Assembly (NCBI RefSeq): GCF_964355755.1 | Contig: NC_092670.1 | Span: 12,262,795 to 12,326,794 of the forward strand | From: Antedon mediterranea | Taxonomy: Eukaryota; Animalia; Echinodermata | Direction: 5' to 3' | DNA length: 64,000 nt | In this document: one piece after another, positions 17,449 to 55,515 of the stretch | Layout of the letters: each line of letters starts with the position of its first letter | How positions within the stretch are numbered: position 1 is the first letter of the stretch | Translations under genes and position numbers: made by a program | The notes under the pieces: generated by a model | What the model was told of the DNA's origin: nothing | The model's database searches: none | Seen by the model: only the letters and a program-made list of their open reading frames with translations

Positions 17449-19664
17449 TGTAATATATTCATATTAGCAATTTAACGACTGGATTGGAGACTAATAAAGG
17501 AGTTCTACAATATGGCTGATCACATTAGCACATGGTCTGATTTCTTAGTGAAATACTTAGTGTTATCATTCATTCCCAGAGCACAATATATAACATTGGC
17601 GACGAGAATTGTGGATAAGTGAACTCCGTGAATATTATCAGTAAGCAATAATGTCTAAATTTGACATATCGGTGGAGTATTTTGATCCAACCATACAAGA
17701 ATGGGCGAGATGGATCGCCAGGTTTGATAACTACTAGTGGCAGCGAACGTGACTGCTGACGTAAGGAAGAGAGCACTACTGCTACACTTCATTGGCCCAG
17801 GTAACTTTAACACATTTGAAATGCTACCAAATAAAGGTACGACATACGTACAGGCAAAAGAAGCTTTGAAAAATTACTTCTTACCATCATCGAACAGTGA
17901 ATTTGAAAGATCGAAATTTAGAAAGTTACAGCAAAATAAAGGTGAGAGCATTGACGTGTATCACATTAGACTACGTGAACAAGCTGATAAGTGTGATTTC
18001 CATGATATTAGTGGAGAGATTAAATCACATATTATTCAATCGACAACAGATTCTAAGCTAAGAAAATTTGGTTTGAAAACGGGTGGATGTACATTAGATG
18101 AGTTACTTCTACATGGTAGGACAAATGAACTAACAACTAAACAATCTAATGAAATGGAGAACGGTGATAATACTAGTAGTAGTATGCCTAGTCGTAGTGG
18201 CGAGACTAAGGCAGATCATTCAGTTAATAAAATAACACAAGCGAAGCAATGTAATAAGTGTGGTTCTACACCAGGTCATACCGCTTCACAGTGTCCAGCT
18301 AGCAATAGAATATGCTATCGTTGTTCAAGAGTAGGACATTACGCAACACAGTGTTATTCAAAGAGTACACACAAGGGAAATTCTTCATGTGGTAGAAACA
18401 ACCAGCGATATAACGACCAAAGTTCACGCGGTGGTAATAGAAGACGCGGTAATCAAACAGGAAGTATACGAGCGCGAGCTAGACGTGTCAATCAAACAGA
18501 ACGAGGGTTCTCAGATGATAGCGACAGTGATCATTCAATGTTTGTATTAAGTAATAATAAGATAGATAGAAGTCATTTCAAAACTATTTTAAACGTAAAT
18601 GATGTTAATCTTGAAATGCTAATTGATACTCAAGCTGATGATACTATAATGTCTATTGATACCTACAGTACAACAAATATTTTAGTCATATAAAAATTGA
18701 CCCAGATGTTATTGATTCCTCTTAAAACATACAGTGGTGAGAAACTTAAGTTAATTGGAAAAATTAAGTGTAAAGTTGTTGACAAACAAAATGTCATACA
18801 CTATCTGAGTGCTAACGTAGCTGACTATAAAGCTAAACTGACTTTACTTGGTGTAGATTGGCTTAATGTGGTTAAACTAGACTGGTCAAAAATAACCCAA
18901 AACTTAAATTCCAGAAATGTAAATAGTCTGCAAAAAGATAAAGGTGTAAATTTGAGATAATTCTCAGTTACAGGCATTGTTAAAAGAACATGCACAATTG
19001 TTTGAGTCTGATAAGAAAGGTATTACAGGAGAAAAAGTTCATATTAACATGAAACAAAATGTTCAACCCATATATTGTAAAGCTAGATTTGTACCATATG
19101 CAATGAAATCTAAAGTAGAAAGAGAGTTGGTTAAATTAGAAAATGAACATGTACAAACGAAAGTAGAAAAATCAAATTGGGCATCACCTATAGTAGTGGT
19201 TCCTAAATCCGACGGTACTGTTAGAATTTGTGGGGACTATAGTGTTACCATAAACCAACATGTAACAGATGAAGAATACAGCTTACCCAGTGCTGATGAT
19301 TTGTACTCTGAACTTTCAGGAAAACGTGTAATTACAAAGCTTGACTTATCACATGCGTACACACAGTTGAATATTGACGGAGAGAGTAAAGAGTTTGTAA
19401 CTATAAACACACACAAAGGTCTATATACGTTTAACAAACTGCCGTATGGAATTAAACCTGCATCAAAGCTGTTCCAAAAACAAATGGATAAGATGTTAAC
19501 AGGGATTGAATGTTGCTTATGCAATCAAGATGATGTTTTGATCCATACGAAAACCGAAAACTAATAAAGGAGTTCTACAATATGGCTAAACATTAGCACA
19601 TGGTCTGATTTCTTAGTGAAATACTTAAGTATTATCATTCATTCCCAGAGCACAATATATAACA
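17449..19664 (+). mobile_element. Mag-like Gypsy LTR retrotransposon, deletion derivative
   Basis: 147-bp 5' LTR (17449-17595), PBS TGGCGACGAG (tRNA-Ser), 5-bp TSD CTTAA. Gag has two knuckles (CNKC..GH..QC, CYRCSRVGHYATQC); protease LIDTQA; RT WASPIVVVPKSDGTVRICGDY/LDLSHAY/LPYG/NQDD is fused directly to a partial 3' LTR (19560-19664). Confidence 0.92.
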
Positions 19665-20490: not shown

Positions 20491-23400
20491 TTATAAAACA
20501 TCACATTTACTATTAGAGTTATTTAAATTCTTCTCTTTGTTTTGCTCAGGTCTGACAGTAATTTTGGTTTTGCTAGTGGTTTCTTCTTCTTTTACATTCT
20601 TGTTCTTAATTGAATCTTTAGGTAGTATTATGGTAAACAGTAGCTGACAAAATAAAACAATCAAACTAAAAATATTATGCATTTTAAAAAAAAACCACAA
20701 TATTGCACGGTACAAAGGATAGCCTATAAAATCCTCAAAAGGAATTTACATCCCGAGACGAAACTAAAGTAAAATAATGTATATGCACATATATATATTT
20801 GTACCTTTGAGAGATCAGGGTCATTGACCTCAGATTGCCCTTTGACTTCTGAATGTGAAATTCTGCAGAAAAAAAACATATTTCAAAACTTTTTCTTGTA
20901 TTACAAATTAACATAAATAAAATTAATAATCATTGGACTTCAACCAACACACGCGTATAAATGTATAAAGTTAAAGATATATTGTTCACTAAAACATAAA
21001 AAGAGAAGATTAATTAAAATCAGACTTTGAATAGGTTATTTTGTAGTTTTAATAAAGTTAATCACTTCCATTGGAAAAAAAACGTTTTAACTTATAAAAT
21101 AAATAAATATATGGTTAAATTCAACCAACAACCAATTTGTCTATTTCTTTGATTTGAGTATAATCAAATTTTTGGTCAAAGTGGATAACAATTAGGTGAA
21201 ATTAAAATGGCATATTTAACGAAACATTTTGAGAAGTATTTTTTCAGGAAGACATTACATCTTCAAAGATACAATAGGCCTAGAGTATACTCATACCTTT
21301 GAGAGATCAGGTTAACCTTGGATTGCTCTTTGACATCTGCTTGAAATCGTGCAATGTTTCCAAGAACAGACCTGGGGCATTTGGAGTCAAGTGTAGTTCT
21401 AAAAGACACAAGAACATATTATAAAATAGAGAAGAAATAAATTAAGAGGGAAAAATATGTGTATCCACAAGAAAAGCTAAATATTAAAAATTACCTTTCA
21501 TTCCTAATGTCATTGAGTAAATCTCCTGCTGCAATCGCCAGACTTATGGCTGCTTCAACCGACACACGCAAGTAAAGATCCATTGATTTTCTTGTCAAAC
21601 GAATCTGTCTGTGTGTTTCTGCCCCATCCCTAAATAAATAAAATGAATTGAAGATACTAAAGCTCTGTTTACACTATCAAAGTTTATGTGATGTGCTCAT
21701 ATGGACATGATATACAGTATCACTACCATAATTTTGGCATATCACTACCATATTTTGGCACATCACATTGAAACTAGTTTGATAGTGTAGACAGAGCTTT
21801 AAGCATTCTTTTGTCATTTCTTTTGATATACTGTACATAAAAGGTCTCATTTTTATAGTGATTTTAGTACAAATACAAAGTCAGGATTTGAACTAATTAT
21901 TCTATGGTTGATAAGCAAACATTATAATCACCTAATTACTGTGCCACTCATAAAACTCATGAGCTGCAACAAACTAAAACCAGAGCATACAATGTTCTAA
22001 TGGTATATTTAAATGTATAGCAACTCTTTCCATTCTTGAAAGACAAGCCATGCAACAGATCACTAAGTACAACAGAGATCAAATTGATACACCTCCATGT
22101 CAAGCATAACATTCCCAAGGCACAGTCGAAGAAAAGATTGAATCATTATATTAATCATAAAAAGGTAATTTTTAGAATATGTAATTGCTGTGAGTCTTAC
22201 TTTTCAATCTTCTTAATGATTTCTTTCCATATCTCATCTTCAAGGCAAAACCGATATGGAATTAAGTGCAAGTAAGAAGGAAGTCTTGGCAACATGTGTA
22301 GCTGGATAGCAAAGAGTATCGGTTGAGGACTGAAGCGATGTCTGCAAAGAGCGATATTCAGCTCTTCCATGTGAGGAGGAGATTCTGTGTAGCTTGGAGA
22401 AACAAATGCCACAATCTTTGATGCACTTTCAAGAATTGATCGCTTTTCTTGATCAGAGCAATCACTCGATGCTACTTTGAGATGTGGAGAGAACTCTTTG
22501 ATCATGTCGATGAAGTATGAGGCAAACTTCAAATCAGATTGAGTGCAGCTTACTGCAATGTCATACCTAACATTATCTAACTCTTTGACAGCATCTTCTT
22601 CTTCTTTATCTATCTGTACTGTCTCCTCAAGCTTCAACAACTCTGGTCTCTTTTCATCAGTTCTCTCAATGACATTTTCTATCTTCCTATTTTCTTCTTT
22701 TACATCATTTGTAATTTCAGATAAATTATTATCCCTTTTTTCAAGATCAAATAATTCATTTTTATCAATCTGCACATTCTCCATTTCCCCTTCCAATAAC
22801 TCTGGTCTTTTTCCATCAGTTTCTTTCTTACTTCCATTTTCTTCTTTCATACCTTCTGTAACTACATTCTTGTCCAACTGCAGACCTACATTCTCCTCTT
22901 TCTCATCCAATAACTCTTGTCCTTTTCCATCAGCTTCCTTCAGATCATTTTCTTTTTTTCTTCCCTTTTCTTCTTTTTTGTCTTCTGCAATTATGCTTTT
23001 ATCTGCCAATAATTTTCCCTTAACATCTTTTTCCATCTTTCTTTCTTTTTCTTTCTCACCATCACCTTCAATTTCTTCAACCTTTGCTAACCCTACTTTC
23101 TCTTCTTCTTTCAGGTAAAAACTCTCAAGATCCCATGGAAATACCTTCTTATACCACCTATCATTCAAATTATATCGGGCACAAAGACATGTTCTTCTGA
23201 GTTTTTCTTGACTTTTAAGGATATCTGGAGACTCTTTTGGCTAGAAATATTAAGAATCAAGAATTAATATGGACTTCTCTTTTTCATAATACACATGATC
23301 AAATCCAATGCATTATTTATTATATGCTTGATATGACAAAAGTAAATTGTATTTATTTTAAACAAACTGTACAGTGAACAATGTAAAATTCACTAAATAC

Positions 23401-26400
23401 TGGAAGCTCTATAAGAAAAAATCTCAGAAAATCCAAAATGCGTTTTTTTTTTACTCAATTCAAAGTGGGAAGATATTTAAACAGCCAAGATAAGCCTACA
23501 CTTTTTTTATCATATATCTAAAAATGACTAAACATTTTGTTTACTTTAGTAAATAGATTCTGCATCTTAGATTTTTGTCCTCTGAGATGTTGGAAGATTG
23601 CTGTGCAGGTTGCTTGAATGGCTGGTGTGAATAACTCTCCAGTTGCCTTCACGAGTTGGATCTGTTTGAACTCAAGAGGAAGGTCATCCAGATCATCATC
23701 CACTAGAAACGGTACCATGATCAATTGATCACTCTGTTACAAGAGAAAGAGAACATGTGGCAGCATAAACAAGTTGTAGTGTATGTCAATTGGTCTATCC
23801 ATCATAATCAATCATCAGTTCAATTTCTAGTAAAAATCTCCAAATATGTCTCACCTTTTGACAATGTTTACTCAAGGAGAGATTGAACTCTTCCTGGCAA
23901 ACAGGAGACAGCAAGTATTCTTTAGTTACAACAGCAATGAAGCACTTTGTACCATCAATGGCATGGTACAGCATCTGCTGCCAAGTGGCACCTGAGAGAT
24001 CAAGAAAAATGTTGATGAAGTTGATAATCAATAAAAAATGTCAATACAATGTTACTTTTCTCTGCTTTCTAAGCAGCAAGTTATAGTGCAATTTCTTCAA
24101 TAGGGAGATTCAAATTTTGTTAGGTCAGGTCAATTGATGCGTCTCTGGAGGTAGTCTGGACCTAGAAACAATTAAACTTGTCTTGAGGTGGGGACAGATA
24201 TTCAATATCTCTGTATGCACAGTCGATTAACATGATGGTTGGTTGTTGGTCTTCACAAATCCCAAGCTCTTTATTATCTTAGCATCAACCTTACATCACA
24301 GTACAATAAGGAGCTTTCAATTCAACGACCAAAGACCTAGGAACTACAGTAGTTGCATCATGTTACAGTAATTCATTGTGTGCATGCAGAGGGGACATTG
24401 TGATCTGCTTCCTCACTCGATTGCTAGATTTTGGCCAATTTGTAGGTAGAGTAGTAGGTCTTTACTGTAGGCTCAAGGGTAATGAACCAAATGTTCCCTA
24501 TGAATTAGGAATAAGATGTTTGATTGTAATTTTATTTACTACAGTACACAATGCCATAAACATTTGATGAAATATGGTTCAGTAATATTAGTTTTCTGGG
24601 ACATACCTGTTTTTAGTTCTTCTGTATCAAAAAACACCTTTAAATTAGCATCAAGGGCTTTGACACATTTGATGACCTCTGCAGCCCTATCTGCATTACG
24701 ATGACTGTATGAGATGAACACATCATACGCAAGCTTTGGTTGTTCGTACATGACCTCAGCATGAACTTTGACATCAAGGGTCGCAATGAGTTGTACACAG
24801 GCTGCTGAAATCTTCTCGGTATCTTTAACGCTTAAAAAAACGAACAAAATTAATCATGCTAAAACTGAATAAACAAAGGAGACCTCATACTTCTTATGTA
24901 GTAATTAAAATAAATACATGGATAAACTGATGAGTTATGTTTGCACAGCAAAACACACCTCAAATGTAAATGGAACAATCCATTTTTGAGTGTGTATAAT
25001 TAAAGTTCAATAAAATATTTGTAATTATGTTCTATTATTTGGTATGCTCAAGTATATGAATAAGGTCAAAATATTTAGCTAACTTATAATCTACATAAAA
25101 GCATTGGAATTACAGAACTTACAGACAATCAACATATTGTACAAGTCCCATATAAGTTGGCATGTCAGTAATAGGCTCTGCATAAAATGGCGCCAGCATA
25201 TCACGCTGAGCGGTTCGATTACAACAGAGAGCCATGTTATACTGTTCCATACAGGAAACGCTTTGAAGGTAATGGGGAGTAAGAACTGAAAGTAAAAGAA
25301 TTTGATTGTCAATAATTCTGTTTGATTGGGGATGGTTTAATATGAAACACTTACTCCCTCTGGCTGGAGTGAAACTTATAAGTACAGTAGTAGCCTATGG
25401 TGTATGATTCATAGTTTTGCCAATGTTAAATAAATGTAGGAGTAAATGATAGAGTTTAAATATCCTTACATACAAATGGAGGATATTAATTTTATTAATA
25501 TATCAAAGAAAAATTCTTTCAATAAGTTATTAAGCTGAAAAATTGAGATTTAGATGATTGTACCATTCACTACAGTGGCAATATTTTACTCCAGGGGGTA
25601 ATTGGAACATAAATCAGATGTCAGAATGTCATTCTATGACAAGACACCGACCAATAAATAATCCTACCTGTGATGACCCTGGCACACCTGATCATGACTT
25701 CATACATGTCTTTCTGCCACACCTCCTCTTTGTTTACCTCATGTTGACTGCCAAAGATACGAATGTCAGGCTTAGCTAACCGTAGTTTATCTTTAATAAC
25801 AGTTGCAATATTTTCATCTTCTTTTGAGGTAGAAAGGTACACATCATACTCAATTGGAACATTCTGGAATGTAATTTAATATACTGTGTTGTGATAGTAT
25901 TGGTTACTACCCCGATTTGTAAATTACTTTCTTTGCAAACATGCAAGTGTTCATTCATTTTAAGTATACAATATTGTCTTAAAAACTAAAACTACTTATT
26001 ATATTAAAAACAACTATAAACATTAATAAAACAATGTAAGTGCCCTTCAGATAGGTCGATGAGCTGTTAGTTGCATATCTGCACAATAAGAACACATTAC
26101 ACTATTTAGAAAGAACCAACTCAATGTAGCTGTGAAATACAGTACATTGCCATGATCACTAAATAATCAAATTAAAAAGCATAGCAAAGTGTATTATTTT
26201 TTTAATATGCTGCGATTCAGGTGATTTCAAAAGAATAAATACAGAAAAGAGTTTCTTTTATGGTTGTAAAATGTCATTTTGATTGATGACTCAGGTTTAA
26301 CCCTTTCACTGCGGAGCATTATTCCCATCTCTGTGCGTAATGTATATTTAAGAAAAACATATGGTATTTTAATAAATTGCAAAAAAATACTAATTGAGAT

Positions 26401-29400
26401 AATTGTGTAATTATTTTTGTGGTGTGTGATGGGCAAAGGGTTAGTCTACAGTTAGGTATAAAAAAAAATGTAATTTGCATATTGATGACGTCATGTGACG
26501 TCATTACAGGTATTTTGGATTTCGTGTTTTTTATCGAATCAATGATAAAAACTATATTTTCTATAAGAAATTCTTATGGAATACGTTTTTCCAACTGGAT
26601 ATTGATAAAGATACGTATAACAAATAAAAATATTTAAAAAAATTGAATTATTTTTATTATTTTATAAAAATTATGCACAAATCAAAGTTTTGGGGCAAAA
26701 TCGTGAAAATAATGACATTTCCCAAAAATTCACTATAGTACATAACTAACTATTGTTTCAGAATTTTTTTTTTTTGCGTGTTGTGATAAACACAATGTTG
26801 CCCTATTGGGGCTGGTAAATTTTGGTTACTTTCAAAATGCCCGCCATTACGCTACTCAAAACAACTTTCCAAGATAGAATATTATTACATACTATTATAT
26901 ACACTATACTATATATAATATAACTATAGAGGGCGCATGATTTTCAAGACAATAATACAGCTATAGAGGGCCGTTTTTTTTGCTGGAAAATTTTTTTAAT
27001 GACTTGCAGAAATATTCAAGTTCATCGAACAAATATAGAGGGTGCTATATATTATAGGCAAATACGATTAAATCATTGTTTTGCCCATACCCGGTATTAC
27101 CGGGTATACGCACTTCAACGACGTTTGTTTATACCCGGTAGTACCGGGTATACGCAGTGAAAGGGTTAAGAGCCTTTGGTAAAAGTCTCTGAGAGCCATG
27201 TAACAAAATTTGAATATTATGTATTATTTGTTTTTTTTCATTTTATAAGCTGTTGTTCTCCTCAAATTTCCACTTTCCTTTCATTTTTTGTTAAGGTAAT
27301 TTTATTGAATTTATCTCTCATTGTGATAAGTGGAAATAAAATTTGAAATCAAATAAACAGTAATAAGATTGTACCTTTCGTTGCAGTTCTTTCATTCCAT
27401 AATTTCCTTTCAACTTTTCAAACAATTGACATAATTGTTCATTTTTCTTCAAAAGCAATTCTTTGTTTGATACTTTGGATGCATAAACTACAATTTTTAG
27501 CTTTCGCAGTGGTAGGCCAGCCTTCATCCAGTTTACAGCTGCCTCTACCATACCATTCATCATACTTTTCTCATTATGTCCCTGCAAGGAAAACAAAATA
27601 ATAGGCTAGTAATCTACATACATAAATTTTACCTTTGATTAGTTCAAACATAATTGTTACAGCATCCATTTTATTTCTGTAGCAGAAATCTCACTGGACT
27701 TTTTTTTATTAAGACTGGTAAACTACAGTCTGAAAAACTTACTGAGTTGTGTGGCAAGTTTCACCACTTGTGCAAACATGACCCTTTCTGAGCCACATTC
27801 ACAGAAATCCTTGCTTCTCATATATGGACAATGGTAAGATTTAATTTTTAAGATTTAAATCTCTACTAGATTAATTCCAATGCGAATTGGCCAAAATGAA
27901 ATAATGGCCAATCTTACTATATGCTATTCTACTGGCCCAACTATTGACATTATAGAAAGTTAAATAAAATGTGCAAATCCTTTTTTTTTAATTAGTCTAG
28001 AAGATCAAAAAACTGGTGCCAATTTCAGTACTATTTTACAAAATGGCACAATTTTTTTTTTTTAAATACAGTAGTTCAACACTGCACTATTCTACTTGAT
28101 GGTTTACCTGAGAACCTGTGTTGAGTAACGGTGTAATCACCGATCCATCTTGATTTTTCAATATAGGAATCAAACAACGAAATACATCTCCAACAAGTTC
28201 TTGCGGCCTAGAAAAACCAGTGCTGAAAGAAGAAATTTGTATTAATAACCCAAGTGTATAATTAGTGTCATTGCTAACCGTAACAGAAAATGATATCACA
28301 GTAGGTACAGTAGATAATTTTGGCATACTGTACCTATATTTGAGCTCAAAACGCCCGCTGGTGACATTACAGAAACAATATGTAGCAATTCTATTGGTAC
28401 ACAAACTCTATCCGATTACAGAATTTATTTTATTTTGAAACTTTTGTATCACTGAATTTGAAATGAAAATTTTAAATCAAAAACATGTCTAAGGTTGGTT
28501 TCCACTTGGACTCAATGCAAGGAAATACATGCAAGTGTAATTTGACCAATCAAAAGTCACAGTTCTGATGATTTGTTGGATTCTAGTGTAAAACCCACCT
28601 TTAAGATCGCACATTCTTTCCTACTCTTTCAAGTCAATTTATAAAAAATAGGGAGTTTGACCATAAAATTACCATAATAATTATCACCACTGAACTTACT
28701 GTTTAGCTTCAAAGCACATAAGTCTTTTGAATGGCAGGTGCTCTGGAAGCTTTTGAGACCACCAGCAATGATGAACATCCCGTAGATCTTCAGCTTTATC
28801 CGCAGCAAGTTTGAAGACATCGATTCCAAGATCTCGCTTTAAAGCTCCAATCAGAGATCCTGCTGTTGGCATATAGTTACCTAGAAAATAGAAACTTCAA
28901 TTAAGCAACACTTGGATAGTAAGTATGTTTATTGTGCTTTTTTCTCTATTGGCGTTAAATTGTAGTCTATCAGAGTTACATTGCAGTCTAACCTTTTCTG
29001 CGAAAAATTACATTTCAGATACCAACTATTTTAATCCCTGGAGTGAAAGGGATGCTGTTTCTATAGTTTGTCTGCTGTTTACTCTACATTCTAAAACCTA
29101 CAGTATTTGAGCTAGTTATGCACTTGCCAATTGTATGATCCACTATATGACCCTCGGGATAGGTGCGTCATGGATGCATCATTTACAAATAATTATTGGT
29201 AGGGGTGCGTCACTAAACCTAAATGGTGAGTCACATTAATGAATAATGGTTGTCAATGTCCGTCACTTTACCATCCACCAATCATAAACAGCATGGTCAC
29301 AGTGTGTCAATATGGGTGCGTCATGGTCACCTAAAGGAAAGTCAAATTTTTGTGCGTCATGGTATTCATAAGGAATGATGCACATCGGACAAATGACGTA

Positions 29401-30103
29401 CCTCTACTGGGGGTCGTATAGTGGGTCATACAATTGACATGCATTACTGTACATCAGATGTATATTTAATTTCTTTTTATTTCGGAAATATCATCCATAT
29501 AAATAAACTTATAAACAGAAAAAGAACAATTGTACAATGTACAGTACTGTACATCTTAAACCCATTTGAGGATTTCCTTAGGTATAAGATAGTTAACTGA
29601 TTGCATGGTTAATACTTGGATATTATTCAAATCAGCTGAACACTGTTCAATGGACAATTGTACTGTGTGAACACACCTTTAGTAACAAAATACCCGACAT
29701 ATTCAACCAGTACAACGTCACAAACAAATCAATTCATTTAAACTGTGATTCAGTATGGCATAGAAATGGTAGTAAAACTGCTCAGGGAATAATTTCGCCA
29801 GTAGCATAGAACAACCTTATTGCTACACATTTCTAAAACTGTGTAGCAAAAAATACAATACAAAACTATGTTTCTCGACTAAAAAATCAGTTTGATTAGC
29901 AATAATATTGCTTTAAAAAAATGGTAGAATTGAATTTATCCCTGCTGATGCATGGCATACTAACCTCGAAAGGCTGATGCCACAACAACATCAACTTTAT
30001 CTTTCACAGGTAGTTTAACAATGTCACCGAAACATAGCTCAATATCGCAGCCACCTAATTGAGTCACCACATGGATAACATCCACTACAATGAGGCCTGC
30101 CAT
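20491..30103 (-). CDS. Macro-like domain + three TIR domain protein with C-terminal CaaX-like motif, 1012 aa, 14 coding exons: 30103-29965, 28880-28700, 28222-28108, 27581-27375, 25863-25668, 25285-25123, 24830-24607, 23991-23855, 23733-23545, 23240-22201, 21629-21495, 21398-21297, 20862-20805, 20643-20491
   Basis: All introns are GT-AG and phases match across all 13 junctions (3039 nt, no internal stop). Macro-like motifs: IELCFGDIVKL..KVDVVVASAF and SVITPLLNTGSQG...LRKLKIVVY. TIR box-1 motifs: YDVYLS, YDVFISYSHRN, YDIAVSC. alphaC motifs: SVSCMEQYNMAL, SPVCQEEFNLSL, SPPHMEELNIAL. Ends SKCDVL*. The last three exons are less certain than the domain-coding ones. Confidence 0.85.
21661..21798. 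mobile_element. PIF/Harbinger-like MITE in intron
   Basis: AGCTCTGTTTACACTATCAAA / TTTGATAGTGTAGACAGAGCT inverted termini flanked by TAA/TTA. Confidence 0.65.
26301..27165. mobile_element. Non-autonomous piggyBac-like element in intron
   Basis: TTAA|CCCTTTCACTGCG ... CGCAGTGAAAGGG|TTAA, with two subterminal palindromes ATACCCGGTA.TACCGGGTAT. Confidence 0.88.
29125..29439. mobile_element. MITE with ~30-bp imperfect TIRs
   Basis: TGCCAATTGTATGATCCACTATATGACCC vs GGGTCGTATAGTGGGTCATACAATTGACA. Confidence 0.6.
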
Positions 30104-31343
30104 GTTTGGGATTTTCTGCTTCAAGTCTTAATATTTGTATCAGTCTGTATCTGTGTACTGTTGCATCTATAGAAAAGCAATTTTAATATATATCAATGTT
30201 AATATCAATCAATCTGAAAAACACATTATTATACTGTAATCAAATAAATAAAATTTGTATCAAAATGCTGTTTAAAATCCTCTGAAAATACCATGTTATT
30301 TCTGTTAGTTACACTTCCCTGCACAGCATTGGTTGTTTGTCATCGATCAAAGATGTCTTCCGTTTCGTGAAAAAGCTGTATGGTATTTAATATGTATGCA
30401 AAAATTAATTCACAAAAAAAAAAACTGTACTGTACTATATATTATAATTATTATGGCTCTCCGTCCGCACAGATAGGTCTACTACAAGTAGTACTCGAGC
30501 ATGTAGGCATTCTCTCGACGTTCCTTAGAACGTTGTTTTGTGACAACAATTTTTTTTTAAATGTGCCACTTTTTAGTCTTTATCAATACTAGGCTATACT
30601 GCAAGTCACAGACATTCTCTCACTCACTAGCTACCCTATGATATATAGCCTATAGGCTAGTACCCTAGTCTAGTACACAGTAGGGTAGGGCCATCCGGGA
30701 TGCCTATAGCCTATCGCTCCCTTCTTGCTTGGGCCTCTCTATCTAGGGGCTATGCCAAAACCATGGGATCCAGTCAAGTCACCCCATACAAAGTCGCCCA
30801 ATACAATGTCACCCAACCCATAGAGATATTATAGTGATATAATATCTCTCTCTATCTAGGCCTAGGCCTATGCCCAATCGCAAAGTCGCCCTGGCACAGT
30901 CGCAACCCCCCTCCGCCCATCACCCACAAAGTCGCCCCACCGGAAAGAAAAGTCTCCCCAACGCAAAGCTCCTACTAGTAACTAGGCCCCCTCTAGCTTG
31001 GAACTCCTGGCCTAGCTAGGCCCTACTAGGCTAGCCAGGCCCTGGCCTAGCTAGCTAGCCCTACAACTAGCCTAGGCCCAGAGCTAGCTAGGGCTAAGAA
31101 GGTAAGCCTCTATCTATACTAGCTAGCCTACCTAGCTAGGCCACTCGCTTAGGCCTAGTAGGCTAGCAGTATAATCAACATTATTTTAACTAAGGATCAC
31201 CGTTTACTTAAATACTGAATAAAGGCATATATAGATCTATCATAGAGTAATAGATAGATCTACACAAAATCACCTTATTATAATTATCACCGCATGACCT
31301 ACAGCCGCCCAGCAATTGTCTTTTCAGGTTTTGTTGGTCATCT

Positions 31344-37618: not shown

Positions 37619-39723
37619 ATGCATTGCCCTAATATATTGGTTGTTTTTTTTCCTGCCGTTTGTCGCCAATGTTATCTCGATTGGTACATTCTATACCAAT
37701 GTTCCTGGTCAGACTCTAGAAGGATGGAGTTATGAATTAAAGGATATCAGTCGTGTAAGTTGTTTGCAAGTCTGTTCGAAGAAAACTTATTGCTGGTCGG
37801 TTAACTATAGCCCGAAAGATCGTGTTTGTCGAATCAGTAAACGTACACCTCTGGATGCGTCAGCTACTGTAAAGATAGATCAAACGCCTGCATTTCTTTA
37901 CATCGAAAAAGTGAGTAAAAACGTTCAATTTCTTCTAAATTACGAAAATTGAACAAACAAAAATTATTTGTTTTTACATTATAATTATGTAAAAAATATC
38001 ATGAAGGTATAGGAAACAAGTAAAACGTGATATATATGAAAATACGTAATATATAATTTATATTGGTTTTCTGTTTCTTAAATGTATTTGCGTTTTTTTG
38101 AGATATAGAGCCTACTTATTTTCTCTATTTTTTGTATTTTAATACAGGTCTTAGACAGTGACTTCAAAAGACGTGAGTATTCCCAAATAACTCTTCCAAA
38201 TGTTTGCAACACAGTCATTTTTGTAATAGAAATATTGTTCAATACAAAAAGATGTCAGGCAATAATATATGTTTGTAGTTAAGTTTCCATTAAAGTAAAG
38301 TGCTTTTACTTGTTTAATATTATTATTCTAAATGTATTATTAGCAACATATTTATTGGGCCTATCGATTTATCGCATCACGTCAATGCAATTAATATTCA
38401 CTATTTAACATCTGATCACTAACTTGGTTCCCATTCTAGGCCGTAATGCAAGTGAGTTATCCAATGGCAAGCGACAGTACGAATAATCTATCACTTGTGA
38501 TTGGTAAAAACCCTCCCTTGCTTTTCGTCCTAATGGGAACCAATCTGTAAAGGTTTGCTTTAAAAAATGTTACATTTTACAAACACGTATCTATATATTT
38601 TATTGATCTTGTTGAGCTCATAATATATCTCTAAACTAATCATTCACATTTTATACTAATATCAATTAGTTACTATCTATTATGTTAATTAACTCGGGCT
38701 ATCAACGTTGGCAAGAAATCCGGCTTTATTCCCTGTATATCAGTTGACAATTGCATATTGTGTATTTTTCATTTTAACTATATCACAACGTACTTTTTTT
38801 CAGATGGCATAGTTTACTATTCGACTGAAGTAACATACGATGACGCTTCAGCTATATGTGAAGATAAGCTAGGTTCACTGGCAACATACGAGCAACTCTA
38901 TGACGCATTCGCCGATGGTGCACAGTGTGCTAAAGGATGGCTTATCAGCAGAGAGATTGCCTTTACAGAAATCTCCTACGCGTGCACAATGAAACCACCG
39001 GTTGAAAGAAGCAATGTGTTTGTTTGTGGACAGTATCGTTTCGGGTTTTATTGTTTTAGAGAAAGAAACATAGTTTCGAGTACACCTACCGCCGATTACA
39101 TTCCAAAATCTCAACGGATAATTAGAATAAGTGAGTCATTGACGACTAAGCTGTATCCTGAAGAGGCAGATCAATGTTGTAGAGATGATTATTCTGGTAG
39201 AATGTCTACATCATTCGAGGCCTACAATGTCACTTACTCAATGAATGTTGATTTTTGTGCTCAAGGTTGGTATGCTGGTGGTCTTGATGGAGACGTATGC
39301 AATACAGATAATCAACCATCGAAATACTGGGATCCTGAAACGTTATGGTTGATCTTTTTAACTGAACCATCTTTCAAACAGTTCAGCTTTTGTTATATTC
39401 CTTTACATGGAGATGGTCTCATTTCTCTCCCTGATCCATACCCGCCTCATCGTGTCATAGTCGCGTCTGGGACGACGGGTGCATGGAGTTACACTTACGT
39501 GGAAGCTATAGCCAGGTGCGCGGTCTATGGCGGTACACTTGCAACGCGCGCTGAAGTTCAGAATGCATATAATATGGGTTTAGAGTGTATACGTGCAGGT
39601 TGGATTAAAGAAGGGTACACCGTGTATGTGTTACAAACACCAAGATCTTGGCAACCAAGTACCGGAATCATCAATCCGAATGACCCGCGTACTGAATCAT
39701 CTGCTTATTGTTACATACCATAA
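37619..39723 (+). CDS. Secreted PAN/Apple + three Link(Xlink)-like module protein; exons 37619-37910, 38148-38172, 38804-39723; +1 frameshift in a T-run of the signal peptide
   Basis: Hydrophobic leader; PAN motif SCLQVCSKKTYCWSVNYSPKDRVCRI; GT-AG junctions with compatible phases (0, 1). Link hallmarks: TYDDASAIC...LATYEQLYDAFADGAQCAKGWL..FYCF and YTYVEAIARCAVYGGTLATRAEVQNAYNMGLECIRAGWI..AYCY. Confidence 0.75.
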
Positions 39724-54280: not shown

Positions 54281-54756
54281 GTTGTATGGGGTTAAATCAT
54301 ATGTTACGGGCTCTTGGCCTATACTCATCTCGTGGAGTTTTTGCCTGAGAAACAGTGTTTCTTCACCAAGTGAATCTAATCTAGGCCTACCTCCAGTGCT
54401 TAGCCTAGAACTGTAGTAAGCACTGACTTAACTAAAACATAAACAAGTTGAGCATTCAGAAACAAATAATGCTAAAGTGAATAATAAAAAAATATTGTAA
54501 GCAGTGTTAAGAAAATAATTAAATTTCTTGCCATTGTCATTATATGCCACAATAGGTTAATTTTGGTGATCATCCTACACTATGTACAGAGTCTACACAC
54601 CTGGGTGGGTTGTATCATGTCGCACTGGTTGCACATATGCGAGCAAAAATGCAGATCAAATATAATGATTAATTGTTTCATATCACATGCTCAAGCAATT
54701 TGTTTCTAACATCCACAATACAACCCACTCTATTTTGTTTAGGTAGGACTGGTGTA

Positions 54757-55095
54757 TTTGACCAGCAACTCGCGTTTTTTGACCAGCAACTCGCGTTTTT
54801 TGACCCGCAACTTGCGTTTTTTGACCCGCAACTCGCATTTTTCGACCCGCAACTCGCGTTTTCCGACCCGCAACTCGCGTTTTCCGACCCGCAACTCGCG
54901 TTTTCCGACCCGCAACTCGCGTTTTCCGACTCGCAACTCGCACTTTTCGACTCGCAACTCGCACTTTCCGACTCGCAACTCGCACTTTCCGACTCGCAAC
55001 TCGCACTTTCCGACTCGCAACTCGCACTTTCCGACTCGCAACTCGCACTTTCCGACTCGCAACTCGCACTTTCCGACTCGCAACTCGCAACTTGC
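54757..55095 (-). repeat. 21-bp minisatellite, reverse complement of 48662-49133
   Basis: (GACTCGCAACTCGCACTTTCC)n, about 16 units. Confidence 0.95.
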
Positions 55096-55515
55096 ATTGA
55101 AGTAACACTCACACCTGCTAGTGTAGAAAAGTCAAATCCACCCATATAATAAAACCTAGAACTAGCTAATGATGTAGAAACACCAACAGTTTATTTATCA
55201 AATAAAAATCAACATTATACTCATGTACAACTCAACAGGTAATGTAGTAACGAAAATTGCCTCACAGCTAATCTAGTTAATATCGCCAGCTAATAAAATA
55301 TTATATATTTTACAAACCTAAATGTCTAAATCATGTGCAAATGTATTTCTCTACTTGCCGTCAGTCTATCCACCTCTCGTAAGTGATCGGCTTTCAAAAC
55401 TTAGCACTCTGATCGTAAGCAACCACCCTTGTTAGCGACCACCTTTAATATTTAAAAGGGACTACCTCTGTTAAAGGACCGCTTCTCACAATGGACAACC
55501 TCCTGAAGGGGTAAG

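What the first reader, a model, noticed from the sequence alone, without database searches (positions are those of the whole stretch)
20491..30103. Animal Macro-TIR-TIR-TIR fusion protein: a candidate single-chain, Thoeris-like NAD+/ADP-ribose signalling system
Seen in the sequence: an intact 14-exon, 1012-aa ORF. Its first ~215 aa carry macro-fold motifs (IELCFGDI..KVDVVVASAF; SVITPLLNTGSQG; LRKLKIVVY) and are followed by three TIR domains; I see no LRR, TM, death or ARM/SAM domain, so it is not TLR, MyD88 or SARM1. Established: TIR domains of SARM1, plant NLRs and bacterial ThsB cleave NAD+ to ADP-ribose derivatives; macro domains bind ADP-ribose; type II Thoeris pairs a TIR (ThsB) with a Macro-containing sensor (ThsA). 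Inference: this protein joins signal writer and reader in one chain, either as an ADPr-gated TIR NADase or as a feedback-controlled generator of an ADPr-type messenger. It may be an uncharacterised animal immune module shared with bacteria.
Basis: partly seen in the sequence, partly recalled or inferred. Interest (0 to 1): 0.9.

Follow-up and report, generated by a model that had tools for sequence, protein, structure and literature searches.

The report
Ancient Macro-TIR fusion shared with bacteria
This intact, spliced feather-star gene joins a macro-fold domain (the fold that binds ADP-ribose) to three TIR domains and a likely lipid anchor; the same fusion with one TIR is common in bacteria and archaea, so it is likely an unstudied NAD-cutting immune switch shared across life.

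Summary
Confirmed: a 14-exon minus-strand gene (30103-20491) gives 1012 aa, identical to an NCBI crinoid protein; one RNA-type contig joins exons 7-10. Residues 1-210 fold as a macrodomain (pLDDT 95; Z 17.8 to macroH2A) that Pfam misses; three TIRs follow. The family spans cnidarians, flatworms, lophotrochozoans, echinoderms, hemichordates and two protists, and matches a large prokaryotic Macro-TIR family (1011 clusters; Glu in 83 of 83) with no fixed partner gene but some loci beside SLATT, patatin, TPR-S or SIR2-STAND genes. It is not type II Thoeris: no TM helices, one chain, and ThsA is only a mid-ranking fold match. The better analogy is TIR-STING/TIR-SAVED: a ligand sensor fused to a TIR enzyme. 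Best model (0.45): ADP-ribose-mark binding clusters the protein at a membrane and switches on TIR2. No activity or immune role is shown. The scan found this family before in octopus. My literature searches found no description of the fusion; two key papers were not available.

The parts
20491..30103 (-). 14-exon gene, 1012 aa: Macro-TIR1-TIR2-acidic linker-TIR3-helical tail-CaaX. Exons 30103-29965, 28880-28700, 28222-28108, 27581-27375, 25863-25668, 25285-25123, 24830-24607, 23991-23855, 23733-23545, 23240-22201, 21629-21495, 21398-21297, 20862-20805, 20643-20491
   Evidence: model; identical to P0001; spliced contig lengths
30104..30362 (-). 5' untranslated part of exon 1, with an in-frame stop 9 codons before the ATG
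   Evidence: X1 contig 6 covers 29963-30362; frame 0
27402..30103 (-). Macro domain, aa 1-205 (exons 1-4): GD26-27 adenine motif, S43-A-F, invariant W86 and E104, loop-2 G143-x-Q145-G146 without the aromatic of hydrolases
   Evidence: fold; conservation
24782..25851 (-). TIR1, aa 219-350: predicted pseudo-enzyme; keeps the C-terminal PxYM..QY.DC motif of the prokaryotic TIR
25242..25244 (-). Gln294 at the catalytic-Glu position of TIR1 (Glu in 0 of 43 rows of A1)
23581..24733 (-). TIR2, aa 367-505: complete predicted NADase pocket (F372, S374, Y375, H377, D402, W412, C440, E443)
23888..23890 (-). Glu443, predicted catalytic residue of TIR2 (42 of 43)
22578..23111 (-). Acidic low-complexity linker aa 561-738, not conserved, longest in the family
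22233..22571 (-). TIR3, aa 741-853: keeps Glu810 (41 of 43) but lacks the BB-loop D/G/W residues
20494..20505 (-). C-terminal CaaX motif CDVL, predicted prenylation site
   Evidence: Cys at -4 in 43 of 65 triple-TIR proteins, 2 of 205 prokaryote-type proteins

Best explanation
The gene encodes a macrodomain fused to three TIR domains and a CaaX tail, and it likely works as an ADP-ribose-gated NAD-cleaving enzyme: the macro domain is predicted to read an ADP-ribose mark, which would cluster the protein at a membrane and switch on TIR2. Shown: gene structure, macro fold, three TIRs, unequal catalytic residues, CaaX conservation, and homology to a prokaryotic single-TIR Macro-TIR family. Inferred: (a) the macro domain is a reader rather than an eraser; (b) its ligand is an ADP-ribosylated macromolecule or an ADPr conjugate made during infection; (c) clustering, helped by a prenyl anchor, lets TIRs stack head to tail; (d) after the ancestral TIR was triplicated the work was split, TIR2 keeping the Glu pocket and dead TIR1 keeping the opposite face, which completes the two-TIR active site or docks on the macro domain; (e) the output is NAD loss or an ADPR/cADPR signal in innate defence, with ADPR able to feed back on the macro domain.
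For: Fold: Z 17.8 to macroH2A1.1. Pocket: G26/D27 in 71 and 70 of 74, G143 and E104 in 74 of 74. Reader-like: no aromatic at the loop-2 position in any of 139 domains where the motif was matched (15 of 154 not matched), no Asn or GGG in loop 1; all active macrodomains carry that aromatic according to 10.64898/2026.08.12.744356 (passages). Obligate coupling: 292 of 315 collected macro-bearing proteins have a TIR directly after it, and the other 23 end within 116 residues. TIR2 keeps the six pocket residues conserved in prokaryotes at 0.97-1.0 of 61 rows, TIR1 at 0.03-0.39; the C-terminal M/C/R motif is the reverse, 0.77-0.90 in TIR1 and 0.02-0.28 in TIR2. TIR active sites span two TIRs through a BB/EE interface (10.1101/2022.05.07.491051, passages). 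Sensor-fused TIRs such as STING-TIR and SAVED-TIR oligomerise only on nucleotide binding (PMC11204291, passages). Prokaryotic Glu 83 of 83. Conflict-type neighbours beside 15 of 69 prokaryotic loci.
Against: No binding, enzyme or expression-under-infection data. Ligand-induced oligomerisation is reported only for ThsA macro domains, and this domain is not ThsA-like. Fold rank does not separate readers from hydrolases: AF1521 Z 16.7 and OiMacroD 16.2 tie with macroH2A 16.9-17.0, and one substitution can turn a reader into an eraser. Only 12 of 61 Glu-bearing animal TIRs tested were active. 54 of 69 prokaryotic loci have ordinary or unknown immediate neighbours, the 15 include near-copies (about 10 independent), and I ran no background control. 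The window's neighbours give no immune cluster beyond one NACHT fragment.
Confidence: 0.45

Rival explanations
1. Signal generator with a built-in brake: TIR2 is switched on by some other cue and makes a messenger for a separate effector, while the macro domain binds or hydrolyses the product (eraser or feedback inhibitor).
For: Prokaryotic loci place Macro-TIR beside nucleotide-responsive effector types: SLATT (L037, L043), patatin plus TPR-S (L063, L069 and kin), patatin (L056, fused in P0049), SIR2-STAND (L034, L035). Invariant E104 (74 of 74) and frequent Q145 could be catalytic. Weak NCBIfam hits include OAADPr deacetylases and hydrolases.
Against: No partner gene recurs: the largest neighbour family touches 11 of 79 loci. 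The hydrolase aromatic, Asn and GGG loop are missing. TARG1-type macro is a weak fold match, Z 9.7.
Confidence: 0.22
2. ADP-ribose-recruited scaffold: in eukaryotes the TIRs act as adaptors for TIR-TIR signalling and are not enzymes.
For: TIR1 has lost the Glu and TIR3 the BB loop; best sequence matches among solved structures are TLR15/TLR2, MAL and MyD88 TIRs; invertebrate ecTIR-DC proteins were proposed to be adaptors (PMC6321704, passages); Glu alone does not ensure activity.
Against: TIR2 keeps every prokaryotic pocket residue in 97-100% of 61 sequences and forms one clade (SH-aLRT 97) with the labyrinthulid TIR2, which is what selection on catalysis would give.
Confidence: 0.15
3. A gated NADase as in the best explanation, but with a non-immune job in animals (NAD or calcium signalling at membranes, stress, cell death or development).
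For: No immune data exist for any member here; prenylation points to membrane signalling; animal TIR enzymes such as SARM1 act in neuronal death.
Against: Tandem paralogue expansions in echinoderms and molluscs (several genes per contig), patchy retention, and conflict-type fusions and neighbours of the prokaryotic form fit immune genes.
Confidence: 0.13
4. A fused descendant of type II Thoeris (ThsA macro plus ThsB TIR) that makes and senses His-ADPR.
For: Same two folds; ESM Atlas lists a ThsA_Macro cluster at 0.80, a lead only; EcThsA aligns at Z 12.2.
Against: No TM helices; ThsA_Macro 0 of 74; 25 other chains rank above ThsA; PADLOC ThsB models give only weak partial TIR hits.
Confidence: 0.05

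Closest known systems
TIR-STING and TIR-SAVED (sensor-fused TIR NADases)
   Same: One chain, a nucleotide-binding module fused to a Glu-bearing TIR; activation by ligand-driven oligomerisation is the inferred shared logic (PMC11204291 passages).
   Different: Sensor is a macrodomain, not STING or SAVED; no cyclase partner gene found; eukaryotic form has three TIRs and a CaaX tail.
Type II Thoeris (ThsB TIR + TM-Macro ThsA)
   Same: Pairs a TIR with a macrodomain in NAD/ADPr chemistry; both may act at a membrane.
   Different: Thoeris II has two genes, its macro gates TM helices and binds His-ADPR/ADPR; here one chain, no TM, and the macro is closer to macroH2A, AF1521 and PARP9/14 than to EcThsA.
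macroH2A / PARP9 MD2 / PARP14 macro 2-3 reader macrodomains
   Same: Top fold matches; loop 2 without aromatic, like PARP14 macro 2 GTGNLG.
   Different: 11-17% identity; family-specific insert with invariant D78 and W86, and invariant E104; fused to TIR.
SARM1 / TIR-1
   Same: Cytosolic animal TIR enzyme of bacterial affinity, held off by an N-terminal metabolite-sensing domain.
   Different: No ARM or SAM domains; SARM1 TIR is only a weak sequence match, E 0.02.
ecTIR-DC families of Gerdol et al. 2017 (ecTIR-DC 8 suggested by an earlier scan note)
   Same: Invertebrate, vertebrate-absent cytosolic multi-TIR proteins; the Trichoplax ecTIR-DC 8 protein is 1082 aa with two detected TIRs (PMC6321704 supplement 1).
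   Different: Identity with this family is unverified: neither the paper nor the sequence could be seen; no macro domain is drawn in that figure.

Membership tests
Macrodomain superfamily | alpha/beta/alpha macro fold | tested here: met
   pLDDT 94.7; Foldseek E 1.1e-9; Z 17.8, rmsd 2.8, 179 aligned; profile hit to AF1521 E 5e-4
Macrodomain superfamily | GD adenine motif and glycine phosphate loop | tested here: met
   G26 71/74, D27 70/74, G143 74/74
Macrodomain superfamily | binds ADP-ribose or a derivative | not testable with these tools
   needs ITC or NMR
MacroD-type hydrolases | catalytic Asn, GGG loop, aromatic in the phosphate loop | tested here: not met
   S43-A-F and GSLIG in loop 1; Q145 at the aromatic position, aromatic in 0 of 139 matched (criteria; positions assigned by motif, not by a printed structural alignment)
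Enzymatic TIR (NADase) | Glu in helix alphaC with betaA and BB-loop pocket residues | tested here: met
   TIR2 only: E443 42/43, S374, Y375, D402, W412 42/43; TIR1 not met (0/43 in A1; 0.05 of 61); TIR3 partial
Enzymatic TIR (NADase) | NAD+ cleavage on self-association | not testable with these tools
   assay needed
Type II Thoeris | ThsA with two N-terminal TM helices | tested here: not met
   no TM-like segment; Pfam and AF2 model show none
Type II Thoeris | TIR and Macro in separate genes of an operon | tested here: not met
   fused in 292 of 315 proteins
Type II Thoeris | ThsA-type macro domain | tested here: inconclusive
   PF20016 0 of 74; EcThsA Z 12.2, rank 26, against 17.0 at the top: same superfamily, no special closeness
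Type II Thoeris | His-ADPR production and sensing | not testable with these tools
   LC-MS needed
TLR / MyD88 / SARM1 | LRR+TM, death domain, or ARM+SAM | tested here: not met
   Pfam at E up to 5 finds only TIR families
Catalogued anti-phage systems (PADLOC 2.0, NCBIfam 20) | full-length match to a system model | tested here: not met
   11 proteins scanned: only partial TIR (and for P0049 phospholipase) hits, all below NCBIfam cut-offs
Anti-phage defence genes in general | enrichment in defence islands | tested here: inconclusive
   15 of 69 loci with a conflict-type immediate neighbour, no background control
CaaX-prenylated proteins | C-terminal Cys-a-a-X conserved above chance | tested here: met
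   43 of 65 against 2 of 205; background Cys 0.014; X = Leu in 31 of 43; the modification itself is untested
ecTIR-DC 8 | sequence homology to the defining members | not tested
   sequence not in the held supplements; source paper not read

The most novel reading that the evidence does not exclude
Macro-TIR is an undescribed immune module conserved from bacteria and archaea to protists and invertebrates: a guard that detects ADP-ribosylation (by phage or pathogen transferases, or by host PARPs) and answers with TIR NAD cleavage; eukaryotes triplicated the TIR into a catalytic copy and a dead copy that completes its active site in one chain, and anchored it to membranes by prenylation.
Probability: 0.3. 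Interest if true: 0.88.

Novelty: new variant of a known kind. Interest (0 to 1): 0.7.

Why it matters
It would add an ADP-ribose-reading input to the known set of gated TIR enzymes and give a further bacterial-eukaryotic shared immune module, one kept in oysters, mussels, sea urchins, corals and Hydra. The 340-aa prokaryotic form is a single gene that can be tested in laboratory E. coli or Bacillus at once, and the split of catalytic and partner faces between TIR2 and TIR1 makes a sharp structural prediction about how tandem TIRs build an active site.

Tried and rejected
Sequence profiles alone miss the macro domain: no Pfam hit for P0001, Macro in 3 of 74 relatives at E 0.003 at best, phmmer of P0100 against PDB E 0.15. 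The ESM Atlas scores (0.80-0.83) are below its chance level and were used only as a lead. No RNA holder is on record as RNA; X1 is a guess. A closer read layout over exons 3-6 could not be obtained, so the Macro-TIR1 junction is not shown in RNA. No whole genome is held; no second copy lies in the window. A fixed prokaryotic partner gene was sought and not found. No chordate, arthropod or nematode name appeared among the named hits, but only 150 of 802 representatives were listed and 30 looked up, so this is not absence. Literature: 'macro-TIR', 'TIR-macro', 'macro+TIR', 'TIR+macro', 'macrodomain TIR' gave 0 papers; searches gave no listing that describes the fusion; passages of PMC9503650, PMC8195603, PMC7159879, 10.64898/2026.10.19.760177, 10.64898/2025.12.03.692087, PMC13142454 and PMC5549309 showed none. 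A 2020 J Bacteriol paper on prokaryotic immune components (recalled) was not held and Gerdol et al. 2017 was not read; either may mention the family. Supplements of the bioRxiv TIR screen (10.64898/2026.04.20.719644) could not be seen, so a member may be among its 154 tested TIRs; its main text has no 'macro'. Rejected: annotation artefact (fusion recurs in intronless prokaryotic genes and in single ORFs on 2.7-3.2 kb Logan contigs); recent transfer into this crinoid (13 introns; eukaryotic domains form one side of a branch).
Full report
1. Observation. Reading the minus strand gives 14 exons from the ATG at 30103 to the stop at 20491, every intron GT-AG, 1012 aa. The product is identical to P0001, which its source names an uncharacterized protein of the crinoid Antedon mediterranea; this is a model from the same genome. 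In run X1, which the tool guesses is RNA, one contig holds exon 7 and exon 10 with 326 nt between them, the exact sum of exons 8 and 9, and another extends 298 nt beyond exon 1 against 296 for exons 2+3. The exon 4-5 junction was not seen. Pfam finds three TIR_2 stretches and nothing else.

2. The N-terminal domain is a macrodomain. An AF2 model of aa 1-210 from 74 sequences has pLDDT 94.7 and pTM 0.91. Foldseek ranks macroH2A1.1 first, E 1.1e-9; VIA gives Z 17.8, rmsd 2.8 over 179 residues. Among 48,161 representatives, macroH2A (17.0, 16.9), AF1521 (16.7), OiMacroD (16.2) and both PARP9 macros (15.8) lead; EcThsA is rank 26 (Z 12.2, rmsd 3.2, 176 aligned) and human C6orf130 rank 38 (Z 9.7). 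A profile of the prokaryotic relatives hits AF1521 by sequence at E 5e-4. G26/D27, S43, W86, E104 and G143 are nearly or fully invariant. The loop-2 position that is aromatic in all active macrodomains (10.64898/2026.08.12.744356, passages) is mostly Gln and aromatic in 0 of 139 matched domains (15 of 154 unmatched), and loop 1 lacks the Asn and GGG. This points to a reader, but readers and hydrolases tie in fold rank, and the invariant E104 is unexplained.

3. The three TIRs differ. In 43 aligned eukaryotic proteins the catalytic position is Glu in 0 for TIR1 (Gln in 33), 42 for TIR2 and 41 for TIR3. Against 78 prokaryote-type TIRs, TIR2 keeps the pocket residues F, Y, F, D, G, E in 0.97-1.0 of 61 rows, TIR1 in 0.03-0.39, and TIR3 keeps only the Glu (0.90) and lacks the BB loop; the C-terminal M, C, R of the PxYM..DCR motif are kept by TIR1 (0.84, 0.90, 0.77) and lost by TIR2 (0.02, 0.03, 0.28). 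TIR active sites span two domains through a BB/EE interface (10.1101/2022.05.07.491051, passages), so I infer a division of labour: TIR2 gives the pocket, TIR1 the partner face, or TIR1 docks on the macro domain.

4. A conserved CaaX tail. The protein ends CDVL. Cys lies at -4 in 43 of 65 triple-TIR proteins and 2 of 205 prokaryote-type ones, with background Cys 0.014 and Leu last in 31 of 43. That CaaL motifs are geranylgeranylated is my own knowledge; the modification is untested.

5. Range. The N-terminal domain finds 52 proteins among 1309 candidates, all with TIR families: echinoderms, hemichordates, molluscs, a nemertean, three unnamed Logan proteins and one metagenome patatin-Macro-TIR, P0049. 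A full HMMER scan finds 802 representatives, 150 listed; of 30 looked up, names include Lingula, Octopus, Macrostomum, Porites, Hydra (Macro plus one TIR1-like TIR), the labyrinthulid Mucochytrium (three TIRs) and a Pavlovales haptophyte (partial). The P0049 macro finds 1011 short proteins among 1362 candidates; 118 of the 120 listed carry a TIR, mostly about 343 aa, with the Glu in 83 of 83 aligned. A GTDB scan gave 79 loci from many bacterial phyla and methanogenic archaea. Overall 292 of 315 macro-bearing proteins have a TIR next. In a quick tree of 154 macro domains the 33 eukaryote-labelled rows lie on one side of a branch (SH-aLRT 93; unrooted, no donor can be named; half of the prokaryote-type representatives were left out), and TIR2 of animals groups with that of Mucochytrium (97; 81 rows). 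So the triple form arose once, early in eukaryotes or with later transfer among marine lineages.

6. Prokaryotic context. No partner gene recurs; the largest neighbour family touches 11 of 79 loci. Of 79 loci, 4 partial ones were left out and 6 failed my ORF caller; 134 immediate neighbours of the other 69 were scanned. By my reading 15 of 69 have a conflict-type neighbour: a patatin, TPR-S, Macro-TIR, TIR operon in Chitinophagaceae (L054, L061, L063, L076, L069), patatin (L056), SLATT (L037; L043 with a further TIR gene), SIR2 and STAND on the opposite strand (L034, L035), tandem Macro-TIR copies (L016, L032), kinase-AAA (L055), ParE (L021), Uma2 (L027). About ten are independent, the rest sit among ordinary or unknown genes, and there is no background control. 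Among 60 longer representatives the module is also fused behind kinases, Hsp70, T6SS sheath, FHA, NUDIX, glycosyltransferase and extra TIR domains. PADLOC and NCBIfam give only partial domain hits for 11 proteins.

7. Mechanism. Best model (0.45): a macro-gated TIR NADase. The macro reads an ADP-ribose mark; clustering at a membrane lets TIR2 form a two-TIR active site; NAD is cut to ADPR or cADPR. The logic matches STING-TIR and SAVED-TIR, which oligomerise on ligand (PMC11204291, passages). Against it: ligand-driven oligomerisation is reported only for ThsA macros, so a multivalent ADP-ribosylated target is the likelier trigger than free ADPR; most active animal TIRs make cADPR and only 12 of 61 tested were active (Hurieva et al., 10.64898/2026.04.20.719644, abstract, Results part 1 and section 8), while the ThsA macro does not bind the 2' and 3' cADPR isomers, so a closed write-and-read loop is not given. 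Rivals: signal generator with a macro brake (0.22), scaffold (0.15), non-immune gated enzyme (0.13), Thoeris II descendant (0.05).

8. Comparison and novelty. It works like a sensor-fused TIR enzyme; it is not a member of type II Thoeris (two TM helices plus Macro, separate TIR gene, His-ADPR; passages), nor TLR, MyD88 or SARM1. Ten searches and passages of the papers named under Tried and rejected gave no description of a Macro-TIR fusion; the TIR atlas of Culbertson et al. (PMC13142454; abstract, section 5, term search) does not mention one. The animal proteins may already be catalogued as an ecTIR-DC family; the Trichoplax ecTIR-DC 8 entry (1082 aa, two TIRs; PMC6321704 passages and supplement 1) fits in size but could not be compared.

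9. Verdict. Real, intact and conserved; a new variant of gated TIR enzymes with an undescribed prokaryotic counterpart and a clear experimental path. Function is inferred throughout. Interest 0.7.

Noticed in passing
window:15392-15997 +: 201-aa frame with the C-terminal part of a NACHT domain (E 8.6e-12) between two retroelements; looks like a fragment of an NLR-type gene 4.5 kb from the 3' end of the finding.
   Followed up: partly
window:9000-13700 and 17731-19564 +: Broken LTR-retrotransposon copies (gag, zinc knuckle, RT, RNase H, integrase zinc finger); the second ends about 0.9 kb from the gene's stop codon.
   Followed up: partly
window:37596-45000 +: Two PAN-domain exons (37596, 44459) and a frame with two Xlink domains (38689-39723): a duplicated PAN-Link lectin-like gene.
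   Followed up: partly
window:5731-6075 -: Exon that resembles the N-terminus of METTL2/6 tRNA methyltransferases (recalled resemblance; no Pfam hit).
   Followed up: no
window:21297-21330 and 20805-20835: Exons 12 and 13 end in near-identical sequence read in different frames, suggesting a local exon duplication.
   Followed up: no
window:48570-49200 and 54680-55190: Arrays of a 21-nt tandem repeat that give long repetitive open frames.
   Followed up: no
P0196, P0238, P0310, P0253: Metagenome proteins in which Macro-TIR is fused to the C-terminus of T6SS sheath (VipA-VipB) domains, some with kinase and FHA domains; an odd sheath-tethered module.
   Followed up: no
L063:5357-13710 (also L054, L061, L076, L069): Chitinophagaceae operon patatin, TPR-S, Macro-TIR, TIR-carboxypeptidase-regulatory, porin-like, TPR-S: a candidate nucleotide-signalling conflict system.
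   Followed up: partly
P0004, P0007: Two paralogues from the same species on a contig of the same length as P0001, outside this window.
   Followed up: no
P0259 (Hydra): 363-aa Macro plus a single TIR1-type domain with Gln at the catalytic site: a possible enzyme-dead decoy or adaptor form.
   Followed up: no
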